Shown here: positions 29,072-43,668 of the stretch, in pieces | Layout of the letters: each line of letters starts with the position of its first letter | Position numbering within the stretch: the first letter of the stretch is position 1 | Virus record (IMG/VR): IMGVR_UViG_3300035698_026482 | Span: 64,001 to 128,000 of that record | Length of the DNA stretch: 64,000 nucleotides | Strand: one strand, 5' to 3' | Source of the DNA: a virus | Translations under genes and position numbers: made by a program | The notes under the pieces: model-generated | Databases searched by the model: none | Told to the model about the DNA's origin: nothing | The model's input: only the letters and a program-made list of their open reading frames with translations

Positions 29072-32000
29072 GCGAAACCTTAGCGTCCTTGCCTATGCGA
29101 GCTATATCGATTACGTTGTCAACGACGTCCTTAAGCGTATCGATATGCGTGATGATAATAATATTCTTAAACCATTGTGTAAGTGATCTTAACAATTGAC
29201 CACACGCCTCGATATTATTATCATCAAGCTCGCTAAATCCCTCATCAATCATCAACATGTCTGTCTTCGGAAGGCTTGATACGTTGATTAGTGCAACGCG
29301 AATAGCGATTGATGCAACCATCTTCTCCATACCGCTACCTAGTTCGATAATACGACGACTATCGCCGTAATTGATGTAAACATCCATCGATGTAGAATCT
29401 TCAGGTAATTCAAGCTCGATTGTGAACTTTACAATGCCATTCAAAATCGAAGCAATTTCGTTATTGATAACAGGTACCATATGACGTAACAATTGAGACG
29501 GGATTCCCTTTTTCGAAGTAGCCTTAATTAATAATTCGTATGCTCGCCAAGATTTAGCAAGTTCAAGATATTCGATGTGCTCACGTTTCAATGTTGCGGT
29601 GAGCTCTTGTAGCTGTCCCAGTTTTTGAAGCTTTAATGAGCGTTCGCCGTCAAGATCATTAATAACAGATTCAATATCGTCAATATCGTCCTTCAATATT
29701 CTCTGATCATGCGAATATGTTGCACGTTCAGCCTTCTTGAATTTTTGTTCTATATCGGCCAAGGTGCCGCGTTCACGATCTAATGAAACTGAGATGTCGT
29801 TGTTATCACGTTCAATACTGTCTTGTTGATGTTGTAGACGAGCGAGCGATAGGTTATATTGATCCTCTTTTGCAATAATACGTCGATATCGCTTAAGCCG
29901 TAAAGCAGATCCGTCCTGCATTAGCGAATCAAATACGGTCTTCTTACCGCTGAGATCATTTAGTAGTTCATCAACGAGTTGTTGTAGATCAGGCAGGTCT
30001 AGTTTATCCTGATGTGAATCCTTAATGAATTTGCAGCTAGGAAAGCTATCACCACAAGGAACCTCAGCAAGTTTAAGTGTTGATTTGCGCTTACGATCCA
30101 GTCGCTGTTTTTGTTCGGTCAGACGTTGTTCAAGTGCGAAGATCCATTCAGACAGATCCTTGCGTTTTTCTTCACGCTCAAGATGCGATTTAAGTGAAAA
30201 ATTTTGCTTAACACGCGAAACAATTTCGATTCTGTGCTCGGCTGCTTCCACACGTTTTTCCAATGCGTCTAGCTGAATTACGCTTTGCTTCATTTTGCTT
30301 TCAAGTTCTGCAATGCGCAGCTTTTGTTTGCTAATATCAGCTTCCGTTACAAGCTCACCATCCCCAAATCCAGCAAGCTTTGTGCGCTTATCTTGTAACG
30401 TATTGCGAGATGTATTAAGCTCTGCTTCAAGTTCATGTATACGCGCTGCTGTATTTTGGGTTTCGTCGATAAGGCGGGTCTTCATGCCTTCCCAGTCACG
30501 CTCGGGCATGTCTTTGATTTTCCCCTTAAGCTCAAGCGAATCAGCTTTTACTTTTTCATGCATCCAATCAAAGATATACATGTCAAGAAAACGTGACAAA
30601 ATTGCCTTACGTTGCGAGGCGCCCTCTGAAATGAATGACTTGAGACCCCCTTGAACAGCGAGTGATGTCAACATGAAATCTTCTGGTGATCCAATCGACC
30701 GACGAATTCTCTTTTCTGTTTCGCGTCTTTGTGTACCATTAAGATTCACGTTGGCGTCTGGCTGATAAAAGTCTAATGACGTCGTCGAAGTAATCTGTCC
30801 CTTGCTTGTTGTTTGTTTGTTGGAGCTTCGCTTGATCTCATGTCGACGACCGTTGACAGTAAGCAATGCCGTCGCTTCACATGAATTCTTACGAATATTG
30901 ATAACGTGCTGGTTTTTCATTGGACCGCGATCGGTCGAGTTGAAAAGCGCATACATCATTGTTCCAATAATCGATGACTTGCCCATTGCGTTGGCAGCGA
31001 AAATGCCGGTGATACCAGATAACGACGCAAAATCGATTTCGTTGTCTTCGCCGTAAGCAAACGTATTGCTAAAATTTAATTTCTCTAGCGTCCATTTCGT
31101 ATGACGTGCTACATCATCGCTTGCGGCGCACTGCGTGATATATGAAGAGACAAATCGTTCTAAATCTTTCCACGTATCATCTGATATTTCGACATCATAA
31201 AAATCCCTAAGCAACTTCATATGTGTCTTGGGATCACGAAGATCATGAGACATCTCCATAACGATATTAGAGCGAGTTGATGTATAATCATCAATCACTT
31301 CAACCTTTGGAACAACTTCCTTGGCATTTTTATTATCACGAAGCTTCTGGCTTAGCGAGCGCCAGTCTGCTTGTGCAATTGTTCCATGCGATCGCACGCG
31401 AAATCGAACGCCATCAGGATATTGCTTTGCATCATCAATAAGTGCATCTACGTCGCCAGTCCAGTCAAGCGTTACAAATCTACTCGGGTTCGGAAGCGTG
31501 ATAAAATCAACAGTAAAATCATCTTTTGACTTGATTTGCCAGAATAAAAACCCGTGGTCTGGATCTTCTGCATAGTTTTGTTGAATAGTTGATCCGCAGT
31601 ACGCCAACCAAGGACGACGTTCACCGTCAATACAATCACGATATGCAAGAAATTGCATTTTATGAATGTCGCCAAGAAGGCCAAAGTCATAGTCTTCAAA
31701 AAAGTCGACGCCTACCTCACCCTTCAGTTCAAAATCAGCTTCAGTTTTAGATCCCCAAACACCGCCATGAAAGACAGCTAGATTAATTTCGCCAGGAACA
31801 GGCTTAACATCTGCCCAACCTTCTTCATCAAAACACGAAAAGACGCACCAGTTAAAGCCTGGTACTGTCGCAGGATATGTGCCAGAGTCCTTAAACAGTG
31901 TGATATTAGGATTGTTGATTAGCTTTAGAATTGGTGAAATAGCATCCTGACGTCCCTTATTCATAAGGTTACCGTCATGATTGCCTAATGTAACAACCAC

Positions 32001-32228
32001 ATGCGCAATGTCCGCCAAGCTGTTAAACCACCATCCCAGAAGATCAACAATCTCCGGACTAATGTTTTGTGTTTTCGTATGAAAAATGTCCCCTCCGATA
32101 TAGATGACATCCGGTTGTAATTCTGTTGCCTTCTTGAAGAAGGCTTCAAAAACGCTTTTAAACTCCCCGTGTCGTGTCAATCCACGAAAGTGAACATCTG
32201 CGATATGTGCAATTTTAAATGCGGACAC
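29064..32228 (-). CDS. Fused Mre11/SbcD nuclease + Rad50/SbcC ATPase (gp47-gp46-like), 1054 aa
   Basis: Phosphoesterase HIADVH, GGDIFH, GNHD, GDIHK; Walker A ANAMGKSS; coiled coil with CGDSFPSC at the apex; signature GSGMEK; Walker B/D-loop IDEGFSELD; H-loop IITHI. Confidence 0.92.
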   Translation of the reverse strand: MSAFKIAHIADVHFRGLTRHGEFKSVFEAFFKKATELQPDVIYIGGDIFHTKTQNISPEIVDLLGWWFNSLADIAHVVVTLGNHDGNLMNKGRQDAISPILKLINNPNITLFKDSGTYPATVPGFNWCVFSCFDEEGWADVKPVPGEINLAVFHGGVWGSKTEADFELKGEVGVDFFEDYDFGLLGDIHKMQFLAYRDCIDGERRPWLAYCGSTIQQNYAEDPDHGFLFWQIKSKDDFTVDFITLPNPSRFVTLDWTGDVDALIDDAKQYPDGVRFRVRSHGTIAQADWRSLSQKLRDNKNAKEVVPKVEVIDDYTSTRSNIVMEMSHDLRDPKTHMKLLRDFYDVEISDDTWKDLERFVSSYITQCAASDDVARHTKWTLEKLNFSNTFAYGEDNEIDFASLSGITGIFAANAMGKSSIIGTMMYALFNSTDRGPMKNQHVINIRKNSCEATALLTVNGRRHEIKRSSNKQTTSKGQITSTTSLDFYQPDANVNLNGTQRRETEKRIRRSIGSPEDFMLTSLAVQGGLKSFISEGASQRKAILSRFLDMYIFDWMHEKVKADSLELKGKIKDMPERDWEGMKTRLIDETQNTAARIHELEAELNTSRNTLQDKRTKLAGFGDGELVTEADISKQKLRIAELESKMKQSVIQLDALEKRVEAAEHRIEIVSRVKQNFSLKSHLEREEKRKDLSEWIFALEQRLTEQKQRLDRKRKSTLKLAEVPCGDSFPSCKFIKDSHQDKLDLPDLQQLVDELLNDLSGKKTVFDSLMQDGSALRLKRYRRIIAKEDQYNLSLARLQHQQDSIERDNNDISVSLDRERGTLADIEQKFKKAERATYSHDQRILKDDIDDIESVINDLDGERSLKLQKLGQLQELTATLKREHIEYLELAKSWRAYELLIKATSKKGIPSQLLRHMVPVINNEIASILNGIVKFTIELELPEDSTSMDVYINYGDSRRIIELGSGMEKMVASIAIRVALINVSSLPKTDMLMIDEGFSELDDNNIEACGQLLRSLTQWFKNIIIITHIDTLKDVVDNVIDIARIGKDAKVSHV

Positions 32229-32260: not shown

Positions 32261-33271
32261 TCAAATTGTGATTGCAAATGAGCCGCTATTTGCTGACACG
32301 TTTAAGTCAGCTATACGATCCATTAATGCCGATGCGGGTGTCCATCTTTTTGCCGCAGCGATGCATTGCATAATTTCTTCACGTGGCATTTCGCCCAAGT
32401 CCTTATGCTCACCTAGATCCATTACTTTAACACTAATATCGTAGCTATACAAAAGTTTGGCTATCTTCTTTGTCTTCTGTTTTTCCTCGGCATCTAATGC
32501 TAAAATAACAGGTGTGCCATTTTCAACAATGCGTCGAAATACGAGAAATCCAGAATCCATTGAGTTGCCCAACAGACATGCTGCGTTAGTCGGACAGTTC
32601 AATGCATCAAATGCGCCTTCTGTCAAAACAAGTTCTTTGTTCCAGTCGATATCGAGCTCGTTAAAAACAACTGCATGTTTCTTCGTCGGCGCATTTCTGT
32701 ATCTAGGAAATGTCCATTTTGAAATAGCGCGTGACATGAAAAAATTCAGTTGTCCTGCAGCGTCAAATGATGGAATTATTACTCTGTTGACATACAATTC
32801 ATCATTCGAAAATCCAAGCTTGAACCGCCAAATATCATCATCAGTAAAACCTCTTTCTCTAACGTATCTAATAATTGCGCGATATTCAGGTATCATCGTG
32901 TCTAAATTTTGCGCCATTAATCGAAATCCGGGTGGCAACGTGACAACCTCCGACTCTATCTGCTCCTCTTCGGATAATCTTGGGCGCTTTGATGGGAACG
33001 CCTTGGCGACTTCATCAAAGTAATTTCCTCTAAATCGCTTAATCAACCATGAAACATTGCCGCCCTTAGTACCACATACCCAACAATGATAGCGACCATC
33101 AGTTAGATGCACAGCAAGCTTAAGTTTATTTGATTGTTGTGCCGTCGAGCATTTCGGATCAGGACAATGACATGCTACATTAACACGATCTGCAGATTGA
33201 TGCAACTTTCCAAGTGCACGGCGAAGTGAATCAACCTTTGCTTGTCTACCATGCATCACATATAATGTCAC
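32261..33271 (-). CDS. DnaG-like DNA primase (Zn finger + TOPRIM)
   Basis: CHCPDPKC...HCWVCG; YVRERG..FKLGF; RVIIP; LVLTEGAFDA; LALDAE; KDLGEM. Confidence 0.85.
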   Translation of the reverse strand: MTLYVMHGRQAKVDSLRRALGKLHQSADRVNVACHCPDPKCSTAQQSNKLKLAVHLTDGRYHCWVCGTKGGNVSWLIKRFRGNYFDEVAKAFPSKRPRLSEEEQIESEVVTLPPGFRLMAQNLDTMIPEYRAIIRYVRERGFTDDDIWRFKLGFSNDELYVNRVIIPSFDAAGQLNFFMSRAISKWTFPRYRNAPTKKHAVVFNELDIDWNKELVLTEGAFDALNCPTNAACLLGNSMDSGFLVFRRIVENGTPVILALDAEEKQKTKKIAKLLYSYDISVKVMDLGEHKDLGEMPREEIMQCIAAAKRWTPASALMDRIADLNVSANSGSFAITI

Positions 33272-33301
33272 ACAGGGATCATCAAATGTATTTTAGTGCA
33301 G

Positions 33302-33892
33302 CTAGATCGTGTAATTCTTACAGTCCTTGAATCCAGCAATTGCAATAACGTAGGCATCCATCATATCAAAGCAGCAATCCTGCATGCGCCCGAACGGGTT
33401 CGCCTTCGATGGTCTTGTTATTGGCCACACGAGTGGGTGTAAATCAGGATGCTTTAGCATCATTTGATCGTATACCTGTTGTTTTACGAAACGTGTATCC
33501 TTTTTTTCTTTTTTATCTACAGCTTTACGAATCTTAATTCCACATACGCCACGCGCACCGGACGAGCTGATATAAAGTGGGTCGATTCCAAATGCATCAC
33601 GGGCCGTATATGAAGCAATCCCGTTAACCTTTGCTAACAAAGATAATGTGTGTGCAGATGAAAATCCTTTTCTAAAGCGCTGCAACGACTCTTCAACGTA
33701 AAGACCTGTGAAGTTACCGGTCGTTGCAAGCCTCTTCAATTCATTTCTGATTGCGTCAGTCGTTTCCCAAAGTGATTTTTTCTTACGCGTATCGATGTAT
33801 CCAAGGTTGACCAACGTGCCTGTATCTGCATTCAAAATGGCGAACCCAGTGATAGCAGTTGAAACGTCAAGACCTATAATCAGGTCAGTCAT
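33302..33892 (-). CDS. RuvC-like Holliday junction resolvase
   Basis: IIGLDVSTAITGFAIL, LYVEES, DMMDAYVIA. Confidence 0.8.
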   Translation of the reverse strand: MTDLIIGLDVSTAITGFAILNADTGTLVNLGYIDTRKKKSLWETTDAIRNELKRLATTGNFTGLYVEESLQRFRKGFSSAHTLSLLAKVNGIASYTARDAFGIDPLYISSSGARGVCGIKIRKAVDKKEKKDTRFVKQQVYDQMMLKHPDLHPLVWPITRPSKANPFGRMQDCCFDMMDAYVIAIAGFKDCKNYTI

Positions 33893-34112
33893 CGAAATTG
33901 TGCTCTAATATTATCTTAGGCCACTCGTCAGCTGTGTCTTGTAGAACAATACGTATATGTTCACTTGCATTGCATTGCTTCATCGCCATTTTGAAATAAC
34001 GGCGGGCTTCTGTTAACTTGTCTGTTGATTTGCCTACAGTCGTAATCGAAATGGTCTCGCCAGACTTTGTACGATCTTGATAGTAAACAATGTATTTGTG
34101 TTTCATACGCAC
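33885..34112 (-). CDS. Hypothetical protein
   Basis: 75 aa; 8-nt overlap with the RuvC start. Confidence 0.55.
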   Translation of the reverse strand: MRMKHKYIVYYQDRTKSGETISITTVGKSTDKLTEARRYFKMAMKQCNASEHIRIVLQDTADEWPKIILEHNFDD

Positions 34113-34142
34113 ACATTACATAAAATGATGCATCGCATAAAA

Positions 34143-36560
34143 TCAAAAATCGATGCCCGGGCGAAAGCTAATCTTATCACCACTTCTTTTCATAACCGGC
34201 TGCGCTAGTGTGCATTTTGCAACAACATTTAAATTCTCGTCATGGAGATTAATACCTGTAATGTATACAAAGTCTCTATCAAATTCATTTGCATCTAGGC
34301 TTGCGGAAGCTGGCACAAATGCAGGGTTTGACGATGAATTTATCATGCCAGCTGGCGCCTGGACACGTACCTTAAATGTATGAATATTGCGGACACCTTC
34401 AAATTCTAGTTCATGGGCCTCTTTGCCGAAGAATGGCAAGTTCGGACTCTTGACAACTACAAGCCCTTCATCGTATAAGATGTTACCAACAGATGTCCAC
34501 TCTGGATGTGCTGTTAACGCATCTGCGCGGTAAAGCGATCCGAATCCGTTATCCTTAAGCTTAATAGATACTCTTCCGCCCGATCCTGTAACTGCTGGGT
34601 CAGTAATTTCGAACGTGCCAGGATTAAATCTATTACCGTAAAAAATATTGCTAGCGTCAAAGATCGCAATCTCGTTAGATGAATTGTCACGTGTACGTTG
34701 GTAAACCGCTAAAACTTCGCCTGGGTCAACGCCAAGATTATCGGGCGTGGCGCCAACAACATCACCGAATAATGTCCCAGATTCGTTTGTAATCGTTGAA
34801 TACCAAGAGTTGTCTGGGATCAGTTCTGTTAAGCTAATTAGCGTTGGATCATATATTCCCAGGTCATTCGTGTACTTGTAATTCAAGCTTGAGGATGCTG
34901 GAACAAAATCAATTGTGCCTGTTGCAATCAAGCGATAATCAGGTATGAATTGTCCGTCATCACATGGGAGAATTGTCAAATTTCGCTTTCGAACAGATGC
35001 AGTCGAATACAGAAAATCATTCATTGCTTTCGTATCCGAATTCTCCGTTATTTGTGATGCTGTCAATGCCCACGCCCGAGGATAATTCGCATTTGCGAAA
35101 TCTCTTGTAAAATTTTCAAGATTCAAATAATGACCACCGACGCCAAATGATAGCGCAACATTAAATGGATCGTCTGTACGTCCATTAATTGCGAAGAATG
35201 GTGTTTGTAGAATACCACCGATGCTGTCAACTTCGGTTCGAAACGGTGACTCAGGTGTAAAGAATGGGGGCAGGTAAAAGGCTAAATCATCGAGGTCATC
35301 GACGACAGAGGTAAGTGACGCAGAATATATTTCGTGAGTTGAAAGACTTTTTTTCCAGATTTTCAACTCATGAACTTCCGCGTTTAACGGGTGCGAAAAT
35401 TCGAATTGATCTGTTTGCGGTGCATCACCTGCAATTGTTGTCAACTCGGGCAGACCTTCTCTCAATGATGGGTCTGATGTGAAGAATATGCTTGAGCTAA
35501 GCGTGTTTCCTGTGTAGTAATTTCCGACGAATAACACGTCTGGACTATTTGTCAATCCTGTAAGTAGGGATGCCGAGGGAATAACAAAATTGCCCACGTT
35601 TTCGCCGTCAACAATAAATGAGCCTGATCCGTCATTAACGGCATTTGTACCCCATTTAACTGATACATGATGCCAATGGTTTTTTGATAGCACGTTATCA
35701 TCAGACAAAAAGATGCCGCTTGCGCTATCAACAATTTGCGAAGGTTCAGTCGCTGTGCCTTCTAAAACCTGCAAGGCCAATCTAAATTGATCAACGAATC
35801 CATTTTTATCTTTGTGCGTGCCTGATAGGATTGACACTGCATACACATCAGGCAGATGAAAAAGCGTGCCTGGTCGCCATGGATCGCCTGCATTCGGTGT
35901 TGTATATCGTGGGTTTATGCGAAAGTCGAACGTGAATGGTCCCGGTGGCAAATATACATTACCAGATACACTGCCAGAGGCTGCGAGACCTGCCCCGGCG
36001 TTCTGATTCGCATACATTAATACTGTATCGGTAGGCACAGGTTCAGTACCGTCTTCATTCGATCCAGTAAAGAAATTTATCGTGTGATAATTGCTATATG
36101 CCCATTGCATTGACGGGTAAACATCGCGATAGTATGGATACAGTATTTCGCGAATTATTCGCTTTCGACCAAAATCTTTATTAAAGAAAAATGGGGTTTC
36201 GAAACGGACGATCTCAAGCGTTTGTTGTTTTCGGGCAGATCGATCTAACGAGTTTGCCCTTGTTAACAAATTTTGTAATGCGCCAAAATTGTTACCTGCA
36301 GTTACAGCGATTCTTTTCGCATCTGCATATAATCCGTCGATGTCACGACCACCTTCATTTGTGGCAGTATCAAGAAACGGTGATAGCGGGCGCGGATCTT
36401 TTTCTATAGTTGATGCCCTTGCGAATAGGGCAACATTGCCGGTAACAGCGCTATAGGTTCCAGAAACAGCATCATACCCATTCGCGGTATATTCGCGGCT
36501 AGGATTCGTTTGAACTGTAAAATGTTCAAAATGTTCCGGAAGTATTCTAATGATGGTCAT
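34143..36560 (-). CDS. Virion tail/baseplate protein with LamG-like domain and C-terminal tail-collar-like motif
   Basis: WHHVSVKW..FIVDG..LFVGN..VHELKIWKK (LamG); C-terminal ITGINLHDENLNVVAKCTLAQPVMK. Confidence 0.7.
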   Translation of the reverse strand: MTIIRILPEHFEHFTVQTNPSREYTANGYDAVSGTYSAVTGNVALFARASTIEKDPRPLSPFLDTATNEGGRDIDGLYADAKRIAVTAGNNFGALQNLLTRANSLDRSARKQQTLEIVRFETPFFFNKDFGRKRIIREILYPYYRDVYPSMQWAYSNYHTINFFTGSNEDGTEPVPTDTVLMYANQNAGAGLAASGSVSGNVYLPPGPFTFDFRINPRYTTPNAGDPWRPGTLFHLPDVYAVSILSGTHKDKNGFVDQFRLALQVLEGTATEPSQIVDSASGIFLSDDNVLSKNHWHHVSVKWGTNAVNDGSGSFIVDGENVGNFVIPSASLLTGLTNSPDVLFVGNYYTGNTLSSSIFFTSDPSLREGLPELTTIAGDAPQTDQFEFSHPLNAEVHELKIWKKSLSTHEIYSASLTSVVDDLDDLAFYLPPFFTPESPFRTEVDSIGGILQTPFFAINGRTDDPFNVALSFGVGGHYLNLENFTRDFANANYPRAWALTASQITENSDTKAMNDFLYSTASVRKRNLTILPCDDGQFIPDYRLIATGTIDFVPASSSLNYKYTNDLGIYDPTLISLTELIPDNSWYSTITNESGTLFGDVVGATPDNLGVDPGEVLAVYQRTRDNSSNEIAIFDASNIFYGNRFNPGTFEITDPAVTGSGGRVSIKLKDNGFGSLYRADALTAHPEWTSVGNILYDEGLVVVKSPNLPFFGKEAHELEFEGVRNIHTFKVRVQAPAGMINSSSNPAFVPASASLDANEFDRDFVYITGINLHDENLNVVAKCTLAQPVMKRSGDKISFRPGIDF

Positions 36561-36720
36561 GTTTCACTGTCGCGATCACATTTCACACGAGCCCTCGTGA
36601 GGGTCTCTAATTTTTGCCATTGGAATATCCATCCTCTAGGTTAGAGACCCCCATGATTGCCCCTATGAAATGTGAGACTAGGGTGTGGGGCTTCATAGGA
36701 TATGTGGCTCGTTAGACGTG
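36561..36720 (-). ncRNA. Candidate structured RNA or long 5' leader with alternative pairings
   Basis: Inverted repeats: 36601-36610/36641-36650 (10 bp), 36662-36669/36692-36699 (8 bp), 36576-36585/36666-36675 (10 bp), 36587-36593/36706-36712 (7 bp). It is the largest ORF-free gap in the tail block. Confidence 0.5.
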
Positions 36721-36721
36721 T

Positions 36722-36729
36722 ATAACTAT
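36722..36729 (-). promoter_or_regulatory. Candidate late-promoter motif ATAGTTAT
   Basis: Immediately 5' of the structured region that precedes 34143..36560. Confidence 0.45.
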
Positions 36730-36748
36730 TCCCGCGATTGAATTGCGA

Positions 36749-38449
36749 TCATACATCAATCGTATACACCGTGTTAGTATCGCCCCAAACTCGGCAAACA
36801 CGTGCCTGTTGGGCAACGGTTGCTTGTGACATATCTTTTTTTGCCTTGATATGAAAACGATCAAGCCTTGTAACAAAGTCTGTCCACCAGAATCGAGGCT
36901 GCGTTTCATGTATTAGCTTATATCCTGAAGACGGATACCCGTCACCTGAGGAGATCCTCATATCGGCATATGTGATTAATCCTATTCTTTCATTTTCGCG
37001 AGCTATTTTTAGTGCATGCTTCGTTAGCTTAGACAGGCCACCAATAACTGCACAATCACGCTTAATCGCAAACCTAGCAACTTCGTAACGTTTTTCATAT
37101 ATCTTTTTTTGTGGGGAACGTAGCGATATCGCACAAACAAGTTCATCATCATATACTAGTCCATACGCAGATTTAGCACGAATGTCTCCTGCAATATGAT
37201 TCTCGTCGAAGAAAGAGCGACGCTGTTCTCTTGTTAGTTTCACCAATTCACACTTTCTAGCAAAGATTTTTCTATCAGCATCGCCAAGTCGATATCTTAT
37301 CATCGAGGTAATAAGATCTTTTTTGTCGCGCCACTCGTCTTCAAAAATTGTAATGACACGATATCCAAGCTTTTCAGCTAGCTTACGTTTTAGCTGTGTT
37401 CGCCTACTGTCTGCTTCAACAGCTTCACTATGCCAGTATAATCCATGATATTCGATTGCTAATTTGTTATTGGGAAATACAATGTCAAGTTCATATGGGC
37501 GAATTAGCTGCCAATTAGATACTTCAGGTTTATATCCAAGTGCTAAGAACGTATTGGCGATATCTTGTTGTCCAATAGAAACAGACTGCTGTCTATCACA
37601 TAACATGCATCGCGGCGCTAATAACACGCTGCTAAGAACCCTTGCATCACTCTTACCACATTGTGCGCAGGCTACGTTAACAGGCATCATTATTCCTGTA
37701 TATGTCTCAAGCGTAACTGTCGGGGTTATGGCAATTGTTTCGTTCTCGGCAACGATTGCTAATCTTTTTGATAGCTCTTCATATGAAAGTCGATTACTGT
37801 CGCTTATTTTTTTCGCAGTAAGTCTAAGTTGAGCTTGACCTTCTTTCGTTTTATAGAACTTTGATTGCTCTTGTCCACGAGTCTTATGAAAATCTATACC
37901 GTCAGGGGAAGAAGCCCATTTTGCAACGCTAATAGCAACCTGCTGCTTTTTTAATTTGCCAACATCCGAGTCCCAAAATTGCTTAAGAGTAAGACTTCGA
38001 CGCTTATTAATTGCGCGGCCGTATTCAGTTTTGTATAGCTCCTTACACGCCTTTGAACGCTTTGCTATTAGCGTTTGACCTTCAGCTGTCTTATAAAATT
38101 GACGCATAGCGAAAGAGCGCTTTTTGGCGGCCAGCTTTACAGCGTTAGAGCCACTCAGCGCGCTTGATAGATTAAGACGATGATTAGCAGTTAAAGGCTT
38201 CCCTTTACGTCGTTTCGAAATACTTTCCCGCATGTCAGTAGTGTAATGGCCACTGACCAATGACATGAATTTGATGCCATTATGAAATCTTGTATACTGT
38301 CCACATCCACACAAGCACATTGGGCGTATGCCGCTGTGCACATGCTTAACAACATAATCTTCATAGGAAATGTCTAGGTGACATTTACGTAGATGATGCT
38401 TAAGGGCACAACGTGATTTCGTTAATAACCCGCATTCCAAACATTTCAT
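36749..38449 (-). CDS. Zn-finger + Vsr-like PD-(D/E)XK endonuclease + Mom-like GNAT fusion, copy 2
   Basis: CLEC...HLRKCH, CLCGCG, CAQC..CMLC; ELDIVFPNNKLAIEYHGLYWH...FEDEW; RRSFFDENHIAG..YGLVYDDELVCAISL..YEVARFAI..ITYADMRISSGDGYPSSGY. Confidence 0.8.
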   Translation of the reverse strand: MKCLECGLLTKSRCALKHHLRKCHLDISYEDYVVKHVHSGIRPMCLCGCGQYTRFHNGIKFMSLVSGHYTTDMRESISKRRKGKPLTANHRLNLSSALSGSNAVKLAAKKRSFAMRQFYKTAEGQTLIAKRSKACKELYKTEYGRAINKRRSLTLKQFWDSDVGKLKKQQVAISVAKWASSPDGIDFHKTRGQEQSKFYKTKEGQAQLRLTAKKISDSNRLSYEELSKRLAIVAENETIAITPTVTLETYTGIMMPVNVACAQCGKSDARVLSSVLLAPRCMLCDRQQSVSIGQQDIANTFLALGYKPEVSNWQLIRPYELDIVFPNNKLAIEYHGLYWHSEAVEADSRRTQLKRKLAEKLGYRVITIFEDEWRDKKDLITSMIRYRLGDADRKIFARKCELVKLTREQRRSFFDENHIAGDIRAKSAYGLVYDDELVCAISLRSPQKKIYEKRYEVARFAIKRDCAVIGGLSKLTKHALKIARENERIGLITYADMRISSGDGYPSSGYKLIHETQPRFWWTDFVTRLDRFHIKAKKDMSQATVAQQARVCRVWGDTNTVYTIDV

Positions 38450-38485
38450 ATAAAGAAAATAGACTTAACACACGTATGTGTTTAA

Positions 38486-38515
38486 CACCACTTACACATT
38501 AATGTGTAAGTGGTG
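38486..38515. repeat. Perfect 30-bp palindrome CACCACTTACACATT|AATGTGTAAGTGGTG
   Basis: Read directly: the two 15-nt arms are exact reverse complements with no spacer. Confidence 0.95.
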
Positions 38516-38531
38516 GATATCATTAACAAAA

Positions 38532-39752
38532 TTAGTAGTCCATTCGCACGGTATATGTCACGTCGCGTTCGTCATTTTTTTCAATTGGGCGCGAAAACTT
38601 GGCCACTGCCAACAGGTTGTCATTCCCATCATAGAAGCCGAGAGTTGTAATCATAGTAAACGACTTTTGGGTCTCTTCTTGACCCTCGTCAATTACAACA
38701 ATACGATCGTCAGCATCAACATACGTCGGATTCGATGAATAATTGAATTCATCAGCGCCTAGTCGTGCAAAAATCAGTGTTGAATTGATATTCGTGATGT
38801 TTTCATAGACGACTGCCGATAATGTGCCTGATCCGAATCGCGTCGAGGCCACATGATCAATAATATCATCAATTGACGCTGACACAACAAAATCCGGAAT
38901 GAATGAAGCCGAAACAATCATTTCACCTGGACCAGCATCAGTATTTGTTGATGTGGTGCCTGCCTTCATGGCGTCGATTACGCCTGTCATTACTTGATCT
39001 GCCTTTGTGACCTTCGCCATATCAAGCACAACAATACCTGCATCGTTAAACAAAAGACCAACTGTACGTGTGGTGTCAGATGCATCTACAATGTCTGATA
39101 CCTGTCCACCAAATGTAACTTCCTTGTTGGTTGATGCGCCAATATCGGTGTAGATTGAAAATCCAGAGGGATCCGAATCAACTATTTGTAGGTTGGAACC
39201 TGTAGTGTTTACAGTATCCTTATGTGAAAGTGATCCTGTTTGATAGAATCCCAGCACGAATGTCTCGCGCTTCATTTGATCGCGATGAAACAAGCGCTTG
39301 AAGTCTAGAAATAGTGCTGCATCAATAGTATCACTGGCGGTGCTTGACCCAAATGGAGCAACAAATGCGGAGTCGGCGCTGCCTAGCAATTTCTGTGCAT
39401 GCTGCTGATACATGAAGATCTTTTCACGCATCATCATTGTACTGGATGGAAAAAGAAATTTCCCGTTTGCATCTTCTCCAGATTTAAAGCCCTCAACGAT
39501 AGATGATGTATGATACAGGCCCATCGTTATATCAAGCACTGGATTGGCCGTTTGGGCCGTAAACGCTTGATCATGAACGGTGTGAAACAATGAGCTTGTT
39601 ACGCCGGGTCCTATACCTCCCGTGACCCACACTTGATATTGCTCGCGGGTTGCGGATCCAGAAATATCTTCTTGAATCACGTCAACGATCTGGTCTAAAA
39701 ATGACCGTCGTGTTTTAAAATCGTTCGACGAGAGCTCTTTCCAGGTTGACAC
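38532..39752 (-). CDS. Virion tail/baseplate protein, sharing its C-terminal domain with 34143..36560
   Basis: ARLGADEFNYSSNPTY...ITTLGFYDGNDNLLAVAKFSRPIEK..VRMDY. Confidence 0.7.
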   Translation of the reverse strand: MSTWKELSSNDFKTRRSFLDQIVDVIQEDISGSATREQYQVWVTGGIGPGVTSSLFHTVHDQAFTAQTANPVLDITMGLYHTSSIVEGFKSGEDANGKFLFPSSTMMMREKIFMYQQHAQKLLGSADSAFVAPFGSSTASDTIDAALFLDFKRLFHRDQMKRETFVLGFYQTGSLSHKDTVNTTGSNLQIVDSDPSGFSIYTDIGASTNKEVTFGGQVSDIVDASDTTRTVGLLFNDAGIVVLDMAKVTKADQVMTGVIDAMKAGTTSTNTDAGPGEMIVSASFIPDFVVSASIDDIIDHVASTRFGSGTLSAVVYENITNINSTLIFARLGADEFNYSSNPTYVDADDRIVVIDEGQEETQKSFTMITTLGFYDGNDNLLAVAKFSRPIEKNDERDVTYTVRMDY

Positions 39753-40676
39753 TTATGCTATCCCCTCTACAACATCAACAATTTGTTGATCAGTCATTGA
39801 ATTAAGTTTTTTATCAGTTAAACGTAACATTTTTTTTCCGTTATGAGCGCACCATTCAATTTGTTGAGCGTCAAGTAATTGTTTGGCGTTTATCGCATAT
39901 GCCTGTGTGCCGGGCTTTGCATTGACTGAGCCGCCTTCGCCGTGCCAATATACACCATCGACCTGAATGTATAACTCGTGATGCTTTATATACATGTCAA
40001 TATCCCATCCGTTCAAGCGTACATGAGTTTCTACATAGCTATCGCCGTACGCCGACCTAAGCACCTGTACAACACGGCGCTCTACCCATGATTCATTAAA
40101 TGTACCATTTTTGCGTTTTGTAGCATGAGACTTTTTTCTAATCGTAGTGCTCTGCATTGGACTATAGACACCATGGCGATGTTGCATAGTCCGATGATAC
40201 TTCTCAGAAACAACAGGATTATCATGAATCGGCGCTGGTGATCCATATTTCTCGATGCGAGTCTCAATCATCTTATCTTTTGTTGCCTTAAGCTTGGTCG
40301 GATGACATCCGTACTTATTATCAAATACCTTCTTAATCTTCTTTTGAACAGTAGTTGATGCAATTGCATGTTCGTGACCATAGCGTTCAAGGTTTGTGGC
40401 TTTCGTTTTTGTGCGAACAGCTGCATTTTGATGCGGATAATCAACGCCATAACGCTCACGACAAGTTATAACGCATTTGACGTGTTTTGCGGCGCCCGTT
40501 TTTTGGGCAACATTTGAACATTTCCGCGAACAAAAATGCAAGTCTTGTGACACAAAATGCACAGAATACTTCTTCATAAACGATTCGCTGCATGAATCGC
40601 ATGTCATTACCGACGTTTTTTTCGGTCTGGACATTCCCCAGCGCTCGCTGGGGCTTATTAGAGTTTTAGTGTACAT
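39753..40676 (-). CDS. Free-standing Vsr-like PD-(D/E)XK homing endonuclease (no Mom-like domain)
   Basis: CDSC..FCSRKC zinc finger; repeated E(R/K)YG helices; SWVERRV...DIDMYI...IQVDGVYWHG. Confidence 0.75.
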   Translation of the reverse strand: MYTKTLISPSERWGMSRPKKTSVMTCDSCSESFMKKYSVHFVSQDLHFCSRKCSNVAQKTGAAKHVKCVITCRERYGVDYPHQNAAVRTKTKATNLERYGHEHAIASTTVQKKIKKVFDNKYGCHPTKLKATKDKMIETRIEKYGSPAPIHDNPVVSEKYHRTMQHRHGVYSPMQSTTIRKKSHATKRKNGTFNESWVERRVVQVLRSAYGDSYVETHVRLNGWDIDMYIKHHELYIQVDGVYWHGEGGSVNAKPGTQAYAINAKQLLDAQQIEWCAHNGKKMLRLTDKKLNSMTDQQIVDVVEGIA

Positions 40677-40689
40677 ATCAATTTATCTT

Positions 40690-41403
40690 TTAGCCCGTCT
40701 TCGAAATCTGAACTTCAAATTCTTTTACAGCGCCCGATTGCGCACCGGAAACCTTGACAAACGTCTTTATAAGGTTCTTGTTTGCTTTTTGGCCAAAAAT
40801 TGTAAATTGAGCATCTGTAATCGCCCTGACCTGTAGCGTGAATGTTAACTGTGATCCACCGAGTGTTGTTTCACCTGCGTCACGACTAAGAAGGAACGTT
40901 GCCCTACGCTGGAAATCAATGTCGTCGGCGACTTGGCCTGCAACTTCAAGAAACTGACTATCAAGAGTAATGATAAAGATCTGATCACGTAACTCAGGAT
41001 CAATTTCATCTTCGTCTTGAATTGTCTGTGCAAGTTGTAGACGACGTGCCGTATTGGTCACACGACTCATGGAGACAACAGCGGCAGTTGAATCTAGACC
41101 TTCACCTGTTAGTTGTACACGAGGCAGGCGTATTAGGTTTGGATTTGAAACACTAATAGCACGATACTTGAGCGCAAGGTTGCCATTCGTTTGGGCCTCG
41201 AAGATAGGCGTATTCTTCTCAATCTTCTCCTTGCCAAGCGTCCGCCCGAATTGTCTAATGATGTTATAATTGACCTCATCGTCAGCGGCTGCAAATTTGA
41301 CAATGTCAAAGCTGCCATCGTTACGGGCAAGGAATTGTCTGCCCGTGTCCGTCAGGACGCAGTCGAGGATGATATTATTGGTGGAATGCTGTAGAAAACC
41401 CAT
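40690..41403 (-). CDS. Baseplate/tail-associated structural protein
   Basis: MGFLQH..ILDCVLTDTGRQFLAR..IVKFAAADDEVNY; N-terminal paralogue of 50473..51396. Confidence 0.65.
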   Translation of the reverse strand: MGFLQHSTNNIILDCVLTDTGRQFLARNDGSFDIVKFAAADDEVNYNIIRQFGRTLGKEKIEKNTPIFEAQTNGNLALKYRAISVSNPNLIRLPRVQLTGEGLDSTAAVVSMSRVTNTARRLQLAQTIQDEDEIDPELRDQIFIITLDSQFLEVAGQVADDIDFQRRATFLLSRDAGETTLGGSQLTFTLQVRAITDAQFTIFGQKANKNLIKTFVKVSGAQSGAVKEFEVQISKTG

Positions 41404-41496
41404 GATGTGATATCTTTATATCTTGGTAGCTTGCTTGTTGATCGTCAACGACGTGTGGTATGTGGTTCATGATTGGGTAGATTGACTATGATTGAA

Positions 41497-41742
41497 CTAG
41501 TCGCCGACGTTAGAAGGACCTATCCATTCAATCCATTCCCAGGCCTTGAGTTTAACTTCTTCATCCGTTGTATCCCAATCCGTTCCTATATGTGCTACGC
41601 TACCGTCGGTGTATAAAAGACCAATTTCAGGCTGTTCGCTTGGGCGATAACGAATCCACCAATAGCCAGATTTCCTTGATTCGCTTCGATTCTCGAGCTC
41701 CTCGCGAATAATCTTGCGTAGTTTTTTTATTACGGATGACAT
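41497..41742 (-). CDS. Small Trp-rich hypothetical protein
   Basis: 81 aa; VIKKLRKIIREELE then SGYWWIRY...WEWIEWIGP. Confidence 0.65.
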   Translation of the reverse strand: MSSVIKKLRKIIREELENRSESRKSGYWWIRYRPSEQPEIGLLYTDGSVAHIGTDWDTTDEEVKLKAWEWIEWIGPSNVGD

Positions 41743-41757
41743 CTTGTTCGATAAATA

Positions 41758-43668
41758 TCAACCCCCACCGGAACCCTTCTTTTTAGTCTTCGTTGTGGGA
41801 ACTGACTTTCCTTCTGCAGGCGGCGCCTTTCGTCTGTCCTTCAGGACTATATCAAGGACGGCAGGTTGCTGTAAATCGGTATTCATGAGTTGTAGACGAT
41901 ATGATCCGCCAGTCTTATCTGTTGACAATAGATTAAGCTTACGTTGTCGACGATCGAATATTTCCAGAAATTCTGGGTCAAAATATACTGCCATTTGCGA
42001 GTGACGTGAATCTTTTATCACATCGACGATTACGTCGTCTTGTGTAACAAACATATTTGGGTATGGTTTTGGTGCGCCTGCTGACGAAACAATCCGACGA
42101 ATGATACTGTTTTTAGCAGAGTCAAATGATGCCTCAATTTGCGTTGAATAATTTGAAACAAGTCCATGTGCATCAACACAACTAACAGCGTAGATAAATT
42201 TCGATGTCCGATTAAAATCTAAGTCAATATACATCGTTTTTGCAGATTTATGCGTTTCAATCAGTGATGGTGCTGGTGTTTCACCTGATTCAATACGCAC
42301 TAAGCTATTATTGAAATCATATTCACGTAGCAATTGAAACGGCTCGTATATTGAGCTTCTTCGGAATACTTGGAACTTCTTAATATCACGTTGTCTATTG
42401 ACTGGGAATGCCCATGTAATACGGGCTGCTTTTGCCTTACGATCCCAGCCAACCTGGAAGTCAGCTGGTGGTGGTGGGGGTACGTTTTCCACACAATCGA
42501 TAACGATTCGCTGACCAGGCTTTGACGAAATAAGCATTGTTGCAGCAACTAATTCATCTTGTCCTTCGACTGTCGCAACAAATTCAACTTCGGCGACGGC
42601 ACGAATTGTATACGAATATCTTTTTCCATAAGCGATATCAGTATCAAACGCACGACTTGTAAGTGGATTTTCAATAATAATCGGATCACGTGTGATCATA
42701 CGACCATCCTCTATAATCTCAGATTTATCAATGATATATCCTGCAATTTTTTTACGAGTATTGAATGACGATACGTTAACACTTCGTGTTTTTACTGGAT
42801 CACCGAATGTTTCATATTCCGCAGTATCGATTGACCCTGCATCAAATTCAGAAACAGCGGATGCTTGTTGAGCTTCCGCGTCTGAAAGTATTGGAGCAAC
42901 TTCATCTATAAAAAGACTGAAGGGGTCTGCACCAATTGATTTAAGAGTTGTACCGATAAATTTGGAGTTGATTTGTACATCCAATCCGACGTCCTTTACT
43001 CGTTCAAATCGCCGTTCAATTTTTTCAGCTTGCATTCCTTCATCAATAAATCTAGCATTTAACTGCTTTAGATTATTCAATGATTCAATAACAAATTTGG
43101 CATCATCTTCACCTTGCCCCACTGATAACAATTTTGCGGCGTCGAATAAGCTAATATTGGGCTTCCCTAATACTCGATTGATCTTTCGTTCGGTCGCTCG
43201 AAACGCATGTTTTAGCTGACGATTATGATTGCTAACCTGGCGAGCCATTGCACCCGATGCGATTAAGAACAGTTTTTCATCAAGCCCATCGTCTTGAAAT
43301 CTTACGCCCGTAAACGAAGTGTTCGTAAGCTCATTTTCGATTTTAATTTTATCAAAGTTTTGCTCAATCGAAGTATCAATCTGGTCGGCAGGGTCGAACT
43401 CGGGCGCCCTGAACATGTTATTATGAAAACCTCCCGCGTTGAGTTTCACAGTAACATAATCAAACTGAATAAACCGAGGGGCTGCTCGTTCAAGTTTTCT
43501 AACAATATCCGTATCTGTCTGATCGAGTTCTTCGCCTACGTCATTGACGCTTTCATCTGGCGAAAAAAAGTTGTAAACAAATTTGCCGCGAAATCCGGGA
43601 ACTTCTGGTACATCTGCAAATGTAACCGGTGACGACGGAAATGATTTATCTAATGAAGCGCGGCCCAT
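41758..43668 (-). CDS. Hypothetical structural protein with Fn3/Ig-like domains
   Basis: PPPPADFQVGW..ARITW..KKFQVFRR..YAVSCVDAHG resembles an Fn3 pattern. Confidence 0.65.
   Translation of the reverse strand: MGRASLDKSFPSSPVTFADVPEVPGFRGKFVYNFFSPDESVNDVGEELDQTDTDIVRKLERAAPRFIQFDYVTVKLNAGGFHNNMFRAPEFDPADQIDTSIEQNFDKIKIENELTNTSFTGVRFQDDGLDEKLFLIASGAMARQVSNHNRQLKHAFRATERKINRVLGKPNISLFDAAKLLSVGQGEDDAKFVIESLNNLKQLNARFIDEGMQAEKIERRFERVKDVGLDVQINSKFIGTTLKSIGADPFSLFIDEVAPILSDAEAQQASAVSEFDAGSIDTAEYETFGDPVKTRSVNVSSFNTRKKIAGYIIDKSEIIEDGRMITRDPIIIENPLTSRAFDTDIAYGKRYSYTIRAVAEVEFVATVEGQDELVAATMLISSKPGQRIVIDCVENVPPPPPADFQVGWDRKAKAARITWAFPVNRQRDIKKFQVFRRSSIYEPFQLLREYDFNNSLVRIESGETPAPSLIETHKSAKTMYIDLDFNRTSKFIYAVSCVDAHGLVSNYSTQIEASFDSAKNSIIRRIVSSAGAPKPYPNMFVTQDDVIVDVIKDSRHSQMAVYFDPEFLEIFDRRQRKLNLLSTDKTGGSYRLQLMNTDLQQPAVLDIVLKDRRKAPPAEGKSVPTTKTKKKGSGGG

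What the first reader, a model, noticed from the sequence alone, without database searches (positions are those of the whole stretch)
36749..38449. Second, diverged nuclease + Mom-like fusion with the full His/Asp/Tyr set
Seen: the same architecture as 9322..11109 with a different Zn-finger N-terminus. It shares ARKC, NH[LI].G, E[VI].RF, GGL.KL, TY.D.R..SG.GY...G[YF], and a terminal R[IV][YW][DG].G/T. It keeps H (ENHI), D (YADMR) and Y (GDGY), matching the metal-binding residues I recall for Mom. Two diverged copies at unrelated loci (after the capsid gene; within the tail block) indicate independent mobility. The related nuclease at 39753..40676 lacks this domain and is a natural control. Inference: a family of mobile modify-and-cut genes, possibly with different specificities.
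Basis: partly seen in the sequence, partly recalled or inferred. Interest (0 to 1): 0.8.

Follow-up and report, generated by a model that had tools for sequence, protein, structure and literature searches.

The report
Hef-type homing endonuclease with Mom-like domain
This gene is one of six copies, in an uncultured jumbo phage, of a known selfish "homing" nuclease gene whose tail end is a well-preserved relative of phage Mu's DNA-modifying enzyme Mom. The design is already published and very common, but what the Mom-like half does has never been tested.

Summary
The ORF at 36749..38449 (-) is real and encodes 566 aa. Its parts, in order, are a C2H2 zinc finger, a zinc knuckle, six short helices, a Cys4 ribbon, a Vsr-like (EDxHD) nuclease and a C-terminal GNAT domain.

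It matches the phage "Hef-like homing endonuclease" families over its full length (PHROG 3339, E 3.9e-64). The GNAT domain is closest to Mu Mom. A profile-profile comparison gives E 7e-6, and six of Mom's seven key residues are in place: H418, R459, S473, D496, R498 and Y505.

The gene is mobile. In 20 related phage contigs the flanking genes abut directly in 14. Three carry a Hef-type gene of a different lineage at the same junction. The record holds six paralogues. The nuclease and GNAT domains are largely inherited together.

- Copy 1 (9322..11109) has His, not Asp, at the DxR position.
- The iron-binding triad proposed for Mom was Tyr/Asp/Tyr, not His/Asp/Tyr.

"Mobile" is supported; "modify-and-cut" remains inference.

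The REase-Mom fusion in jumbo phages is already published (Iyer 2021). The GNAT domain alone has about 12,000 cluster representatives. This scan has already reported the same architecture on other DNA, in at least 63 genomes.

Verdict: a new member of a known kind, of modest interest.

The parts
36749..38449 (-). Complete Hef-type homing endonuclease gene, 566 aa (copy 2 of the finding)
   Evidence: ORF list. PHROG 3339 'homing endonuclease' E 3.9e-64 over residues 35-562, and PHROG 559 E 9.7e-59. tblastn hits in 423 phage records, many annotated Hef-like homing endonuclease.
38342..38449 (-). N-terminal C2H2-type zinc finger (residues 1-36; C3, C6, H19, H24)
   Evidence: C3, C6, H19 and H24 are conserved in at least 90% of the family. 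The model shows a beta-beta-alpha unit with pLDDT above 90. The family profile gives weak matches to C2H2 fingers, E 0.03-0.1. The module is homologous to residues 118-173 of copy 1.
38246..38323 (-). Cys-rich knuckle P-x-C-x-C-x-C ... G-H (residues 43-68), probably a second zinc site
   Evidence: C45, C47, C49, G58, G67 and H68 are conserved in at least 90% of the family. Zinc binding is inferred.
37742..38146 (-). Array of six helices of about 18 residues plus one more (residues 102-236), the presumed DNA-tracking region
   Evidence: Full-length AlphaFold2 model: helices 102-119, 122-140, 142-160, 162-179, 182-199, 202-218 and 223-236, pLDDT about 86-92. The same region in relatives carries NUMOD3 motifs (13 of 71 members; copy 1 at E 3.5e-6). 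DNA binding is inferred.
37595..37735 (-). Cys4 zinc ribbon (C261, C264, C281, C284) just before the nuclease domain
   Evidence: C261, C281 and C284 are invariant and C264 is at least 90% conserved. The model shows beta strands at 239-271.
37289..37576 (-). Vsr-like / EDxHD PD-(D/E)XK nuclease domain (residues 292-387)
   Evidence: PDB 3r3p (I-Bth0305I catalytic domain) at E 6.8e-4 alone and 7.1e-6 with the family profile. Pfam MTES_1575 at E 1.1e-4, below its cut-off. E320, D322, H340, K354, D371 and W373 are invariant in 71 of 71 members. D322 and H340 correspond to I-Bth0305I D196 and H213, which are Vsr D51 and H69.
36752..37273 (-). Mom-like GNAT domain (residues 393-566)
38486..38515 (.). 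Perfect 30-bp palindrome (15+15, no spacer) between the stop of the upstream 406-aa gene and the endonuclease start codon
   Evidence: the repeat finder pair I2, 100% complementary. It is unique in the window, with 0 matches expected by chance. Its function is unknown. It could be an RNA hairpin that insulates expression or a protein-binding site; both are inference.
36576..36675 (.). Long imperfect inverted repeat (35-nt arms) in the 188-nt spacer between the endonuclease stop and the start of the downstream 805-aa gene
   Evidence: the repeat finder pair I1, 80% complementary. The RNA fold of 36561..36748 (-) gives -63 kcal/mol, z -4.5, with 0 of 200 shuffles as stable. There is no Rfam match. 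The spacer is absent from relatives with the empty junction, whose gaps are 10-132 nt.
9322..11109 (-). Paralogue (copy 1), 595 aa, directly downstream of the major capsid gene
   Evidence: 27% identity, E 4e-47. PHROG 3339 at E 3.4e-72, NUMOD3 at E 3.5e-6, and weak Mom hits (Pfam E 0.14, PHROG 1384 E 0.0014). Its GNAT domain has D-to-H at the Mom D149 position and S-to-G at the S124 position.
39753..40676 (-). GNAT-less relative: DUF7487 repeats plus a Vsr-like nuclease, 307 aa, in the next intergenic slot
   Evidence: Pfam DUF7487 at E 4.4e-19. PHROG 3339 at E 3.5e-18 covers only profile positions 89-308 of 536. The nuclease motif aligns at E 5e-4. This slot is empty in 17 of 20 relatives.

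Best explanation
This is a free-standing homing endonuclease gene of the Hef type, which belongs to the EDxHD (Vsr-like) family. It has inserted itself between two conserved, co-oriented phage genes.

Proposed mechanism:
- The N-terminal half (zinc finger, zinc knuckle, helical array, Cys4 ribbon) reads a long DNA site.
- The Vsr-like domain cuts that site in phage genomes that lack the gene.
- Recombinational repair from the gene-carrying genome then copies the gene in.
- The C-terminal Mom-type GNAT domain is most likely still an enzyme. My best guess is that it puts an (amino)acyl group on a base, probably an adenine, at or near the recognition site in the carrier genome, so the carrier is spared from its own nuclease.

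What is shown:
- The gene and its domain architecture.
- Homology of both C-terminal domains to their families.
- Conservation of the catalytic residues.
- Sporadic presence of the gene at this junction among relatives.
- Multiple paralogues in the record.
- Joint inheritance of the nuclease and GNAT domains.

What is inferred:
- DNA binding by the N-terminal half.
- Cleavage and homing.
- Everything about what the GNAT domain does.
For: **Family membership**
- Full-length matches to PHROG 3339 and 559.
- Relatives annotated Hef-like homing endonuclease in T4-like, PA5oct, Campylobacter, Jersey and PBS1 phages.
- BFVD structure hits at E 1e-23 to 1e-32 to the same proteins.

**Nuclease domain**
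- PDB 3r3p at E 7.1e-6.
- E320, D322, H340, K354, D371 and W373 are invariant in 71 of 71 members.
- Taylor 2011 places Hef-type enzymes in the EDxHD family (PMC3239194).

**Mobility**
- The order g636-g237-g406-g805 is kept in 20 relatives.
- The junction is empty in 14, holds a small non-Hef insert in 3, and holds a DUF7487-type Hef gene in 3.
- There are six paralogues in 183 kb at 27-34% identity.

**GNAT domain**
- hhalign to the Mom family at E 7.3e-6.
- Conservation of the residues aligned with Mom's key residues: H418 and R459 71/71, D496 70/71, R498 69/71, Y505 as Y or W 71/71.
- These are the residues whose mutation cripples Mom (PMC13219725; PMC7261163).

**Domains evolve as a unit**
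- 20 of 72 tree splits are shared, against 0.2 expected by chance.
- 17 of 25 supported GNAT splits recur in the nuclease tree.
Against: - No cleavage, homing or modification was or could be measured here.
- The protein itself does not reach Pfam Mom (no hit at E <= 1).
- The Mom S124 position, where S124A is a dead enzyme, is Ser in only 45 of 71 members (Gly 21, Ala 3).
- Mom Y59 is always I/L/V in this family, and the Mom dimer residue W48 aligns with Glu.
- Copy 1 has lost the Asp, so the activity is dispensable for at least one persisting copy.
- GNAT-less relatives exist, namely the 307-aa gene here and I-Bth0305I itself, so the nuclease does not need the domain.
- From my recollection of the abstract of Sandegren 2005 (paper not held), Hef cut DNA of its own phage as well in vitro. 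That does not fit simple sequence-based immunity, and it was not tested with modified DNA.
Confidence: 0.55

Rival explanations
1. Single-chain restriction-modification weapon rather than a homing element. The Mom-like domain would modify adenines across the phage genome. The nuclease domain would degrade unmodified host or competitor DNA. Several paralogues would give several specificities. This is the published reading for jumbo-phage Mom-REase fusions.
For: - Iyer et al. 2021 state this model for jumbo phages (PMC7824862).
- Both domains keep their catalytic residues.
- There are six paralogues with varied N-terminal DNA-binding parts.
- The two domains are inherited together.
Against: - The gene is absent from this junction in 17 of 20 related phages. 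Where the junction holds a Hef-type gene (3 loci), it is of a different lineage.
- It sits in intergenic slots next to conserved genes, like the seg and mob genes of T4.
- Family members are annotated and, for Hef of U5, reported as homing endonucleases.
- A defence function that pays for itself would be expected to be kept more regularly.
Confidence: 0.2
2. The GNAT domain is no longer an enzyme. It would serve as a structural module for DNA gripping or base flipping, or for pairing two nuclease domains so that both strands are cut.
For: - Mom is a tight dimer, and I-Bth0305I needs dimerisation for cleavage.
- The Mom S124 position is variable (45 Ser, 21 Gly, 3 Ala).
- The Mom Y59 position is never Tyr.
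- Copy 1 has lost the Asp.
- R111 of Mom was proposed to contact the DNA base rather than the cofactor.
Against: - Five positions that line Mom's active site are invariant or nearly so across 71 sequences that share only about 42% identity in this domain. That is more than a scaffold usually needs.
- The Mom dimer residue W48 is not kept.
Confidence: 0.2
3. The GNAT domain acts on a non-DNA substrate, for example an aminoacyl-tRNA or a host protein, and so helps the phage or the element in a way unrelated to the cut site.
For: - GNAT enzymes with tRNA substrates exist (TacT, FemX), and Mom itself binds Gly-tRNA.
- Generic acetyltransferases score as well as Mom by Z.
- 8 of 71 members hit Pfam Acetyltransf_1.
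Against: - The closest family by profile comparison, and the closest named stand-alone viral structure, is Mom, a DNA modifier.
- The domain is permanently fused to a DNA-binding nuclease.
- The two short 'stand-alone' hits examined were a contig-end fragment and a broken copy.
Confidence: 0.05

Closest known systems
Hef (phage U5) and the 'Hef-like' free-standing homing endonucleases of T4-related, PA5oct-like, Campylobacter (CP81, NCTC12673 Hef168), Jersey and LIMEstone phages; PHROG 3339 and 559
   Same: - Full-length profile match covering the N-terminal DNA-binding region, the Vsr-like nuclease and the C-terminal domain.
- tblastn hits in these phages run through residues 148-563, so they include the GNAT part.
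- Several copies per genome (5 in PA5oct, 9-11 in Campylobacter phages, 6 here).
- Placement beside conserved structural or replication genes.
   Different: - Only 26-33% identical to any isolate phage protein.
- This copy has its own N-terminal make-up: one C2H2 finger plus six helices in place of clear NUMOD3 motifs.
- No activity data exist for this protein.
I-Bth0305I, prototype of the EDxHD homing endonuclease family (PDB 3r3p; Taylor et al. 2011, PMC3239194)
   Same: - Vsr-like catalytic core with the Asp and His pair (D322 and H340 here; D196 and H213 there).
- An N-terminal DNA-binding region.
- The authors themselves count Hef-type enzymes in the family.
   Different: - I-Bth0305I is intron-encoded.
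- It is 266 residues long and ends with the nuclease domain.
- It has no GNAT domain, zinc finger or Cys4 ribbon.
Mom of phage Mu (Pfam PF25680; PDB 8bv8), the Gly-tRNA-dependent adenine N6 modifier
   Same: - GNAT fold with extra structure between the last two strands.
- hhalign E 7.3e-6.
- Equivalents of H58, R111, S124, D149, R151 and Y159 are present in this copy.
   Different: - Fused to a nuclease instead of a stand-alone dimer of about 230 aa.
- Below the Pfam threshold.
- Y59 and W48 are not kept, and the S124 position varies in the family.
- A Gly-rich V-x-G-G-L-S/G-K stretch stands where Mom has P-R-N-S-E-S-R.
- The donor (tRNA or CoA) and the product are unknown.
Jumbo-phage Mom-REase fusions described by Iyer, Anantharaman, Krishnan, Burroughs and Aravind 2021 (PMC7824862)
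   Same: - The same architecture, a REase-fold nuclease fused to a Mom-family GNAT, in jumbo phages.
- The same 'modify self, cut others' idea.
- The record here is a 183-kb piece, estimated 53% complete, of such a phage.
   Different: - That paper treats them as restriction-modification-like conflict systems.
- In the passage read, it does not link them to Hef homing endonucleases or to gene mobility.
- Here the sporadic distribution is documented for this locus.

Membership tests
Hef-type / EDxHD (Vsr-like) homing endonucleases | Vsr-like PD-(D/E)XK catalytic domain with the conserved acidic and His residues of the EDxHD motif | tested here: met
   PDB 3r3p at E 6.8e-4 (single sequence) and 7.1e-6 (profile). 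D322 and H340 align with I-Bth0305I D196 and H213. E320, D322, H340, K354 and D371 are invariant in 71 of 71 members. The fold of this domain alone was not searched, because GNAT matches filled the hit lists.
Hef-type / EDxHD (Vsr-like) homing endonucleases | Full-length likeness to proteins named or shown to be Hef homing endonucleases | tested here: met
   PHROG 3339 at E 3.9e-64 (profile positions 65-531 of 536) and PHROG 559 at E 9.7e-59. Hits annotated Hef-like in PA5oct, Jersey and NCTC12673.
Hef-type / EDxHD (Vsr-like) homing endonucleases | Free-standing gene with sporadic presence among related genomes (empty alleles) | tested here: met
   20 related contigs were compared. The g406|g805 junction is empty (10-132 nt) in 14, holds a small non-Hef insert in 3, and holds a Hef-type gene of a different lineage in 3.
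Hef-type / EDxHD (Vsr-like) homing endonucleases | Site-specific double-strand cleavage near its own locus, and homing in mixed infection | not testable with these tools
   This needs purified protein and phage crosses.
Mom family (Pfam PF25680) | GNAT fold | tested here: met
Mom family (Pfam PF25680) | Score above Pfam's gathering threshold for PF25680 | tested here: not met
   This protein has no PF25680 hit at E <= 1. Copy 1 scores 12.3 bits against a cut-off of 27.1. Only 3 of 71 relatives match, best E 3.2e-10.
Mom family (Pfam PF25680) | Profile-level homology to Mom proteins in preference to other GNAT families | tested here: inconclusive
Mom family (Pfam PF25680) | Residues needed for Mom activity: H58, Y59, R111, S124, D149, R151, Y159 | tested here: inconclusive
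   Six of seven are present in this copy (H418, R459, S473, D496, R498, Y505), and Y59 is replaced by I419. Across 71 relatives: H and R (R111 position) 71/71, D 70, R (R151 position) 69, Y/W 71, S only 45, Y59 position never Tyr.
Mom family (Pfam PF25680) | HTH-like insertion between the last two strands, essential in Mom | tested here: inconclusive
   The model has about 35 extra residues with one helix between strands 520-523 and 559-565. The alignment to 8bv8 spans Mom residues 36-221. hhalign covers only the first part of the insertion.
Mom family (Pfam PF25680) | Transfer of glycine from Gly-tRNA to N6 of adenine in double-stranded DNA | not testable with these tools
   This is a biochemical property, established for Mu Mom in PMC13219725.

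The most novel reading that the evidence does not exclude
Hef-type homing endonucleases could be single-chain 'cut-and-protect' selfish genes. In this reading the Mom-type domain uses an aminoacyl-tRNA (as Mu Mom does) or an acyl-CoA to place a bulky adduct on one adenine inside the enzyme's own long recognition site. This would be site-specific DNA hypermodification serving the immunity of a mobile element rather than anti-restriction. Each of the six paralogues would then write and read its own site.
Probability: 0.25. Interest if true: 0.7.

Novelty: new member of a known kind. Interest (0 to 1): 0.3.

Why it matters
As an annotation it is routine. It is one more copy of a very large phage gene family: about 12,000 cluster representatives for the GNAT domain alone, and 423 isolate-phage records with a match.

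The open point is functional. Thousands of homing endonucleases carry a well-preserved relative of the only known enzyme that aminoacylates DNA, and nobody has tested why. Mom is now known to use Gly-tRNA, and assays exist (nucleoside LC-MS, in vitro reconstitution). The question of whether these selfish genes mark their own target sites is therefore directly testable.

This window offers a convenient set for such a test:
- a copy with the full residue set (36749..38449);
- a natural Asp-to-His variant (9322..11109);
- a GNAT-less relative (39753..40676).

Tried and rejected
- **megablast.** A search of 15 kb around the gene against isolate phages found nothing. No close cultured relative exists, so DNA-level comparison of filled and empty sites was not possible.
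- **Complex prediction.** There is no result either way.
- **Rfam.** No match on 33000..42000 or on the related locus L009.
- **Apparent breaks in the 805-aa gene.** In L009 and L016 these looked like introns. They are in-frame extra segments of a single 1093-aa ORF, so I dropped the idea.
- **Names for the flanking genes.** PHROG and Pfam searches gave nothing useful.
- **Short stand-alone GNAT hits.** These came from the representative search. P0261 lies 74 nt from a contig end. P0288 is the tail of a Hef gene broken by a stop. Neither is evidence for a free-living form.
- **The 30-bp palindrome upstream of the gene.** It is not repeated elsewhere in the window or beside the other copies examined, so it is not a family-wide signal.
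- **GC content.** The gene has GC 0.414, against 0.431-0.443 for its neighbours and 0.438 for the window. The difference is too small to argue for foreign origin.
- **Papers not held.** Sandegren 2005 and Iyer 2009 were unavailable. What I say about them rests on citations in other papers and on my own recollection.
Full report
**What is there**

The ORF at 36749..38449 on the minus strand is intact and encodes 566 residues. A full-length AlphaFold2 model built on 43 relatives has mean pLDDT 88.7 and shows these parts:

| Residues | Part |
|---|---|
| 1-36 | C2H2-type zinc finger |
| 43-68 | Cys-rich knuckle |
| 79-100 | Disordered linker |
| 102-218 | Six consecutive helices of about 18 residues |
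| 239-285 | Beta-rich Cys4 ribbon |
| 292-387 | Mixed alpha/beta nuclease domain |
| 393-566 | C-terminal alpha/beta (GNAT) domain |

The zinc ligands C3, C6, H19, H24, C45, C47, C49, C261, C264, C281 and C284 are invariant or at least 90% conserved in the family.

**Check of the observation**

- The gene aligns with the 595-aa ORF at 9322..11109 over 536 residues (27% identity, E 4e-47).
- The 307-aa ORF at 39753..40676 shares only the nuclease core (E 5e-4). It is a DUF7487 plus Vsr-like protein that stops where the GNAT domain would begin.
There are four corrections:
  1. The N-terminal finger is not of a different kind. Residues 1-55 align with residues 118-173 of copy 1, which simply has two such modules.
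  2. Copy 1 reads TYVHLR where this gene reads TYADMR, so the Asp is not shared. Copy 1 is the only one of 71 family members with His there.
  3. The iron triad proposed for Mom in 2020 was Tyr/Asp/Tyr, with the His assigned to cofactor binding (PMC7261163). The first Tyr is I, L or V throughout this family.
  4. The flanking genes match no PHROG or Pfam family, so 'tail block' could not be verified.

**The nuclease half**

- Alone, the protein matches the catalytic domain of I-Bth0305I (PDB 3r3p) at E 6.8e-4. A 71-sequence family profile matches it at 7.1e-6.
- Pfam gives sub-threshold hits to MTES_1575, DUF559 and Vsr.
- Taylor et al. 2011 define the EDxHD homing endonuclease family from this enzyme and explicitly include 'bacteriophage Hef type homing endonucleases' (PMC3239194).
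- D322 and H340 here align with D196 and H213 there, which are Vsr D51 and H69. The Ala at the His position in the 3r3p sequence is the crystallised H213A mutation.
- E320, D322, H340, K354, D371 and W373 are invariant in 71 of 71 relatives.
- The whole protein matches PHROG 3339 ('homing endonuclease', E 3.9e-64, nearly full profile) and PHROG 559 (E 9.7e-59).
- tblastn finds relatives in 423 isolate-phage records. Many are annotated Hef-like homing endonuclease, with 5 places in PA5oct-like phages and 9-11 in Campylobacter phages.

**The GNAT half**

- A model of residues 285-566 has pLDDT 96.4.
- All listed PDB matches are GNAT acyltransferases.
- At sequence level, the family profile hits Gcn5 at E 1.2e-4.
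- Three of 71 relatives reach Pfam Mom (best E 3.2e-10), and eight reach Acetyltransf_1.
- hhalign against an alignment of 37 Mom proteins gives 84% probability and E 7.3e-6 over 142 columns.
- Among stand-alone viral models the best named match is Mom of Salmonella phage FSL SP-031, E 3.7e-9.

The hhalign alignment pairs Mom's key residues as follows. These are the residues whose mutation abolishes or cripples momylation (PMC13219725). Counts are across 71 relatives.

| Mom residue | This protein | Across 71 relatives |
|---|---|---|
| H58 | H418 | 71 His |
| Y59 | I419 | I, L or V in 69; never Tyr |
| R111 | R459 | 71 Arg |
| S124 | S473 | 45 Ser, 21 Gly, 3 Ala |
| D149 | D496 | 70 Asp |
| R151 | R498 | 69 Arg |
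| Y159 | Y505 | 59 Tyr, 12 Trp |

- The Mom dimer residue W48 aligns with a Glu.
- The protein itself does not reach Pfam Mom.
- I therefore call the domain a Mom-like GNAT, the nearest family being Mom, and not a member of PF25680 as Pfam draws it.

**Is it mobile?**

I fetched 20 contigs of related phages through the upstream 406-aa gene. Flanking proteins are 49-66% identical.

- All 20 keep the order g636, g237, g406, g805.
- The g406|g805 junction, which holds this gene plus 82-nt and 188-nt spacers here, varies:
  - 10-132 nt long in 14 contigs, i.e. empty;
  - 254-654 nt without a Hef relative in three;
  - occupied by a Hef-type gene in three (L014, L017, L026).
- The Hef-type genes in those three are only 30-34% identical over the conserved core. 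Their N-terminal parts consist of DUF7487 repeats, so they are a different lineage.
- The next junction, g237|g406, holds the 307-aa nuclease here. It is empty in 17 contigs and carries a NUMOD3 gene in one.
- I also checked 80 loci downstream of the major capsid gene, where copy 1 sits. About a dozen have a full Hef gene, about two dozen have a gene sharing only the zinc-finger module, and the rest have neither.
- The virus record is 182,840 bases and estimated 53% complete. It holds six full-length paralogues at 27-34% identity to this one. All keep the nuclease residues. All but copy 1 keep the DxR pair.

**Are the two domains inherited together?**

- I built separate trees of the nuclease and GNAT columns for 75 sequences.
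- They share 20 of 72 splits, against 0.2 with shuffled labels.
- 17 of 25 well-supported GNAT splits recur in the nuclease tree.
- No pair differs by more than about 0.2 in identity between the two domains.
- The GNAT domain alone finds 12,260 cluster representatives at E <= 0.001 and 4,229 at E <= 1e-10. Nearly all of the best 150 are proteins of 430-740 aa with the domain at the C-terminus.
- The two short hits I examined were a contig-end fragment and a copy broken by a stop.
- The fusion is thus old, stable and very widespread.

**How it most likely works**

- *Shown:* the architecture, the homologies, residue conservation, sporadic occupancy of the junction, the paralogy, and joint inheritance of the domains.
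- *Inferred from the families:* the N-terminal half binds a long DNA site, the Vsr-like domain cuts gene-less genomes, and repair copies the gene in.
- *For the GNAT domain I commit to catalysis.* Five active-site positions are essentially invariant at about 42% domain identity. The most likely use is a protective base modification at or near the carrier's own site.
- *This last step is weak.* The S124 position varies. Copy 1 has lost the Asp. GNAT-less relatives function, I-Bth0305I being the example. The donor could be a tRNA, as in Mom, or a CoA thioester, which the Gly-rich V-x-G-G-L-S/G-K stretch would suit.
- *Rivals:* a genome-wide restriction-modification role (the published reading), a purely structural role, and a non-DNA substrate.

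**Comparison with what is known, and novelty**

- The family is Hef / Hef-like (Sandegren 2005, cited; the paper itself is not held).
- Its nuclease belongs to the EDxHD family.
- The fusion of Mom-family GNAT domains to REase-fold nucleases in jumbo phages, and the modify-self, cut-others idea, are in Iyer et al. 2021 (PMC7824862).
- I found no paper that tests the GNAT domain of a Hef-type enzyme, and none that holds 'Hef-like' together with 'acetyltransferase'.
- Earlier reports of this scan describe the same architecture on other DNA in at least 63 genomes and reach the same verdict. I did not lean on them, but my results agree.
- This gene is therefore a new member of a known kind.

**Local details**

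- A perfect 30-bp palindrome lies 37 nt upstream of the start codon (38486..38515). It is unique in the window.
- The 188-nt downstream spacer folds into a long hairpin: -63 kcal/mol, z -4.5.
- Both lie within the inserted segment, and neither has an Rfam match.
- They may insulate expression of the selfish gene from its neighbours. That is a guess.

Noticed in passing
window 38486..38515: A perfect 30-bp palindrome (15+15, no loop) lies between the stop of the 406-aa gene and the start of the endonuclease gene. It is unique in the window and is not found beside the other Hef copies examined.
   Followed up: partly
window 36561..36748: The 188-nt spacer after the endonuclease gene folds into a long hairpin (35-nt arms, -63 kcal/mol, z -4.5) that ends just before the start codon of the 805-aa gene. 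It has no Rfam match. The spacer is absent from relatives with the empty junction.
   Followed up: partly
window 9322..11109: Copy 1 is the only one of 71 family members with His in place of the Asp that aligns with Mom D149. It also has Gly at the Mom S124 position. It is a natural candidate for a GNAT-inactive Hef enzyme.
   Followed up: partly
L029-L108, just downstream of the major capsid gene (for example L029:7995-8255): About two dozen related phages carry, right after the capsid gene, a gene that shares only the N-terminal zinc-finger module (residues 3-89 of this protein) and no Hef nuclease or GNAT domain. The DNA-binding module seems to be shuffled between different genes at this hotspot.
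   Followed up: no
L014:4414-6153 (-), L014:9160-11019 (+), L017:8234-10087 (+): These are Hef-type genes whose N-terminal half is made of DUF7487 repeats, the same repeats as in the GNAT-less 307-aa gene of the window. The 307-aa gene may therefore be a shortened relative of this second Hef lineage.
   Followed up: partly
L009:8239-11520 and L016, same position: The homologue of the 805-aa gene is 1093 aa long, with two extra in-frame segments of about 150 residues each. At first sight they looked like introns, but the frame is continuous and there is no Rfam match.
   Followed up: yes
L110:545-2191: A Hef-type gene in a metagenome contig is broken by a stop just before the nuclease motif. 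Gene callers therefore report a 291-aa N-terminal piece and a 187-aa 'stand-alone' GNAT protein.
   Followed up: yes
P0086 (730 aa): This relative combines GIY-YIG and I-HmuI-like NUMOD domains with the Vsr-like nuclease and a GNAT domain that reaches Pfam Mom. It is either a double-nuclease homing enzyme or two fused neighbouring genes.
   Followed up: no
window 29064..32228: A 1054-aa protein carries a calcineurin-like phosphoesterase domain followed by SbcC/Rad50-like ATPase motifs. This looks like an Mre11-Rad50 style fusion in one chain, sitting in the block of conserved genes.
   Followed up: no
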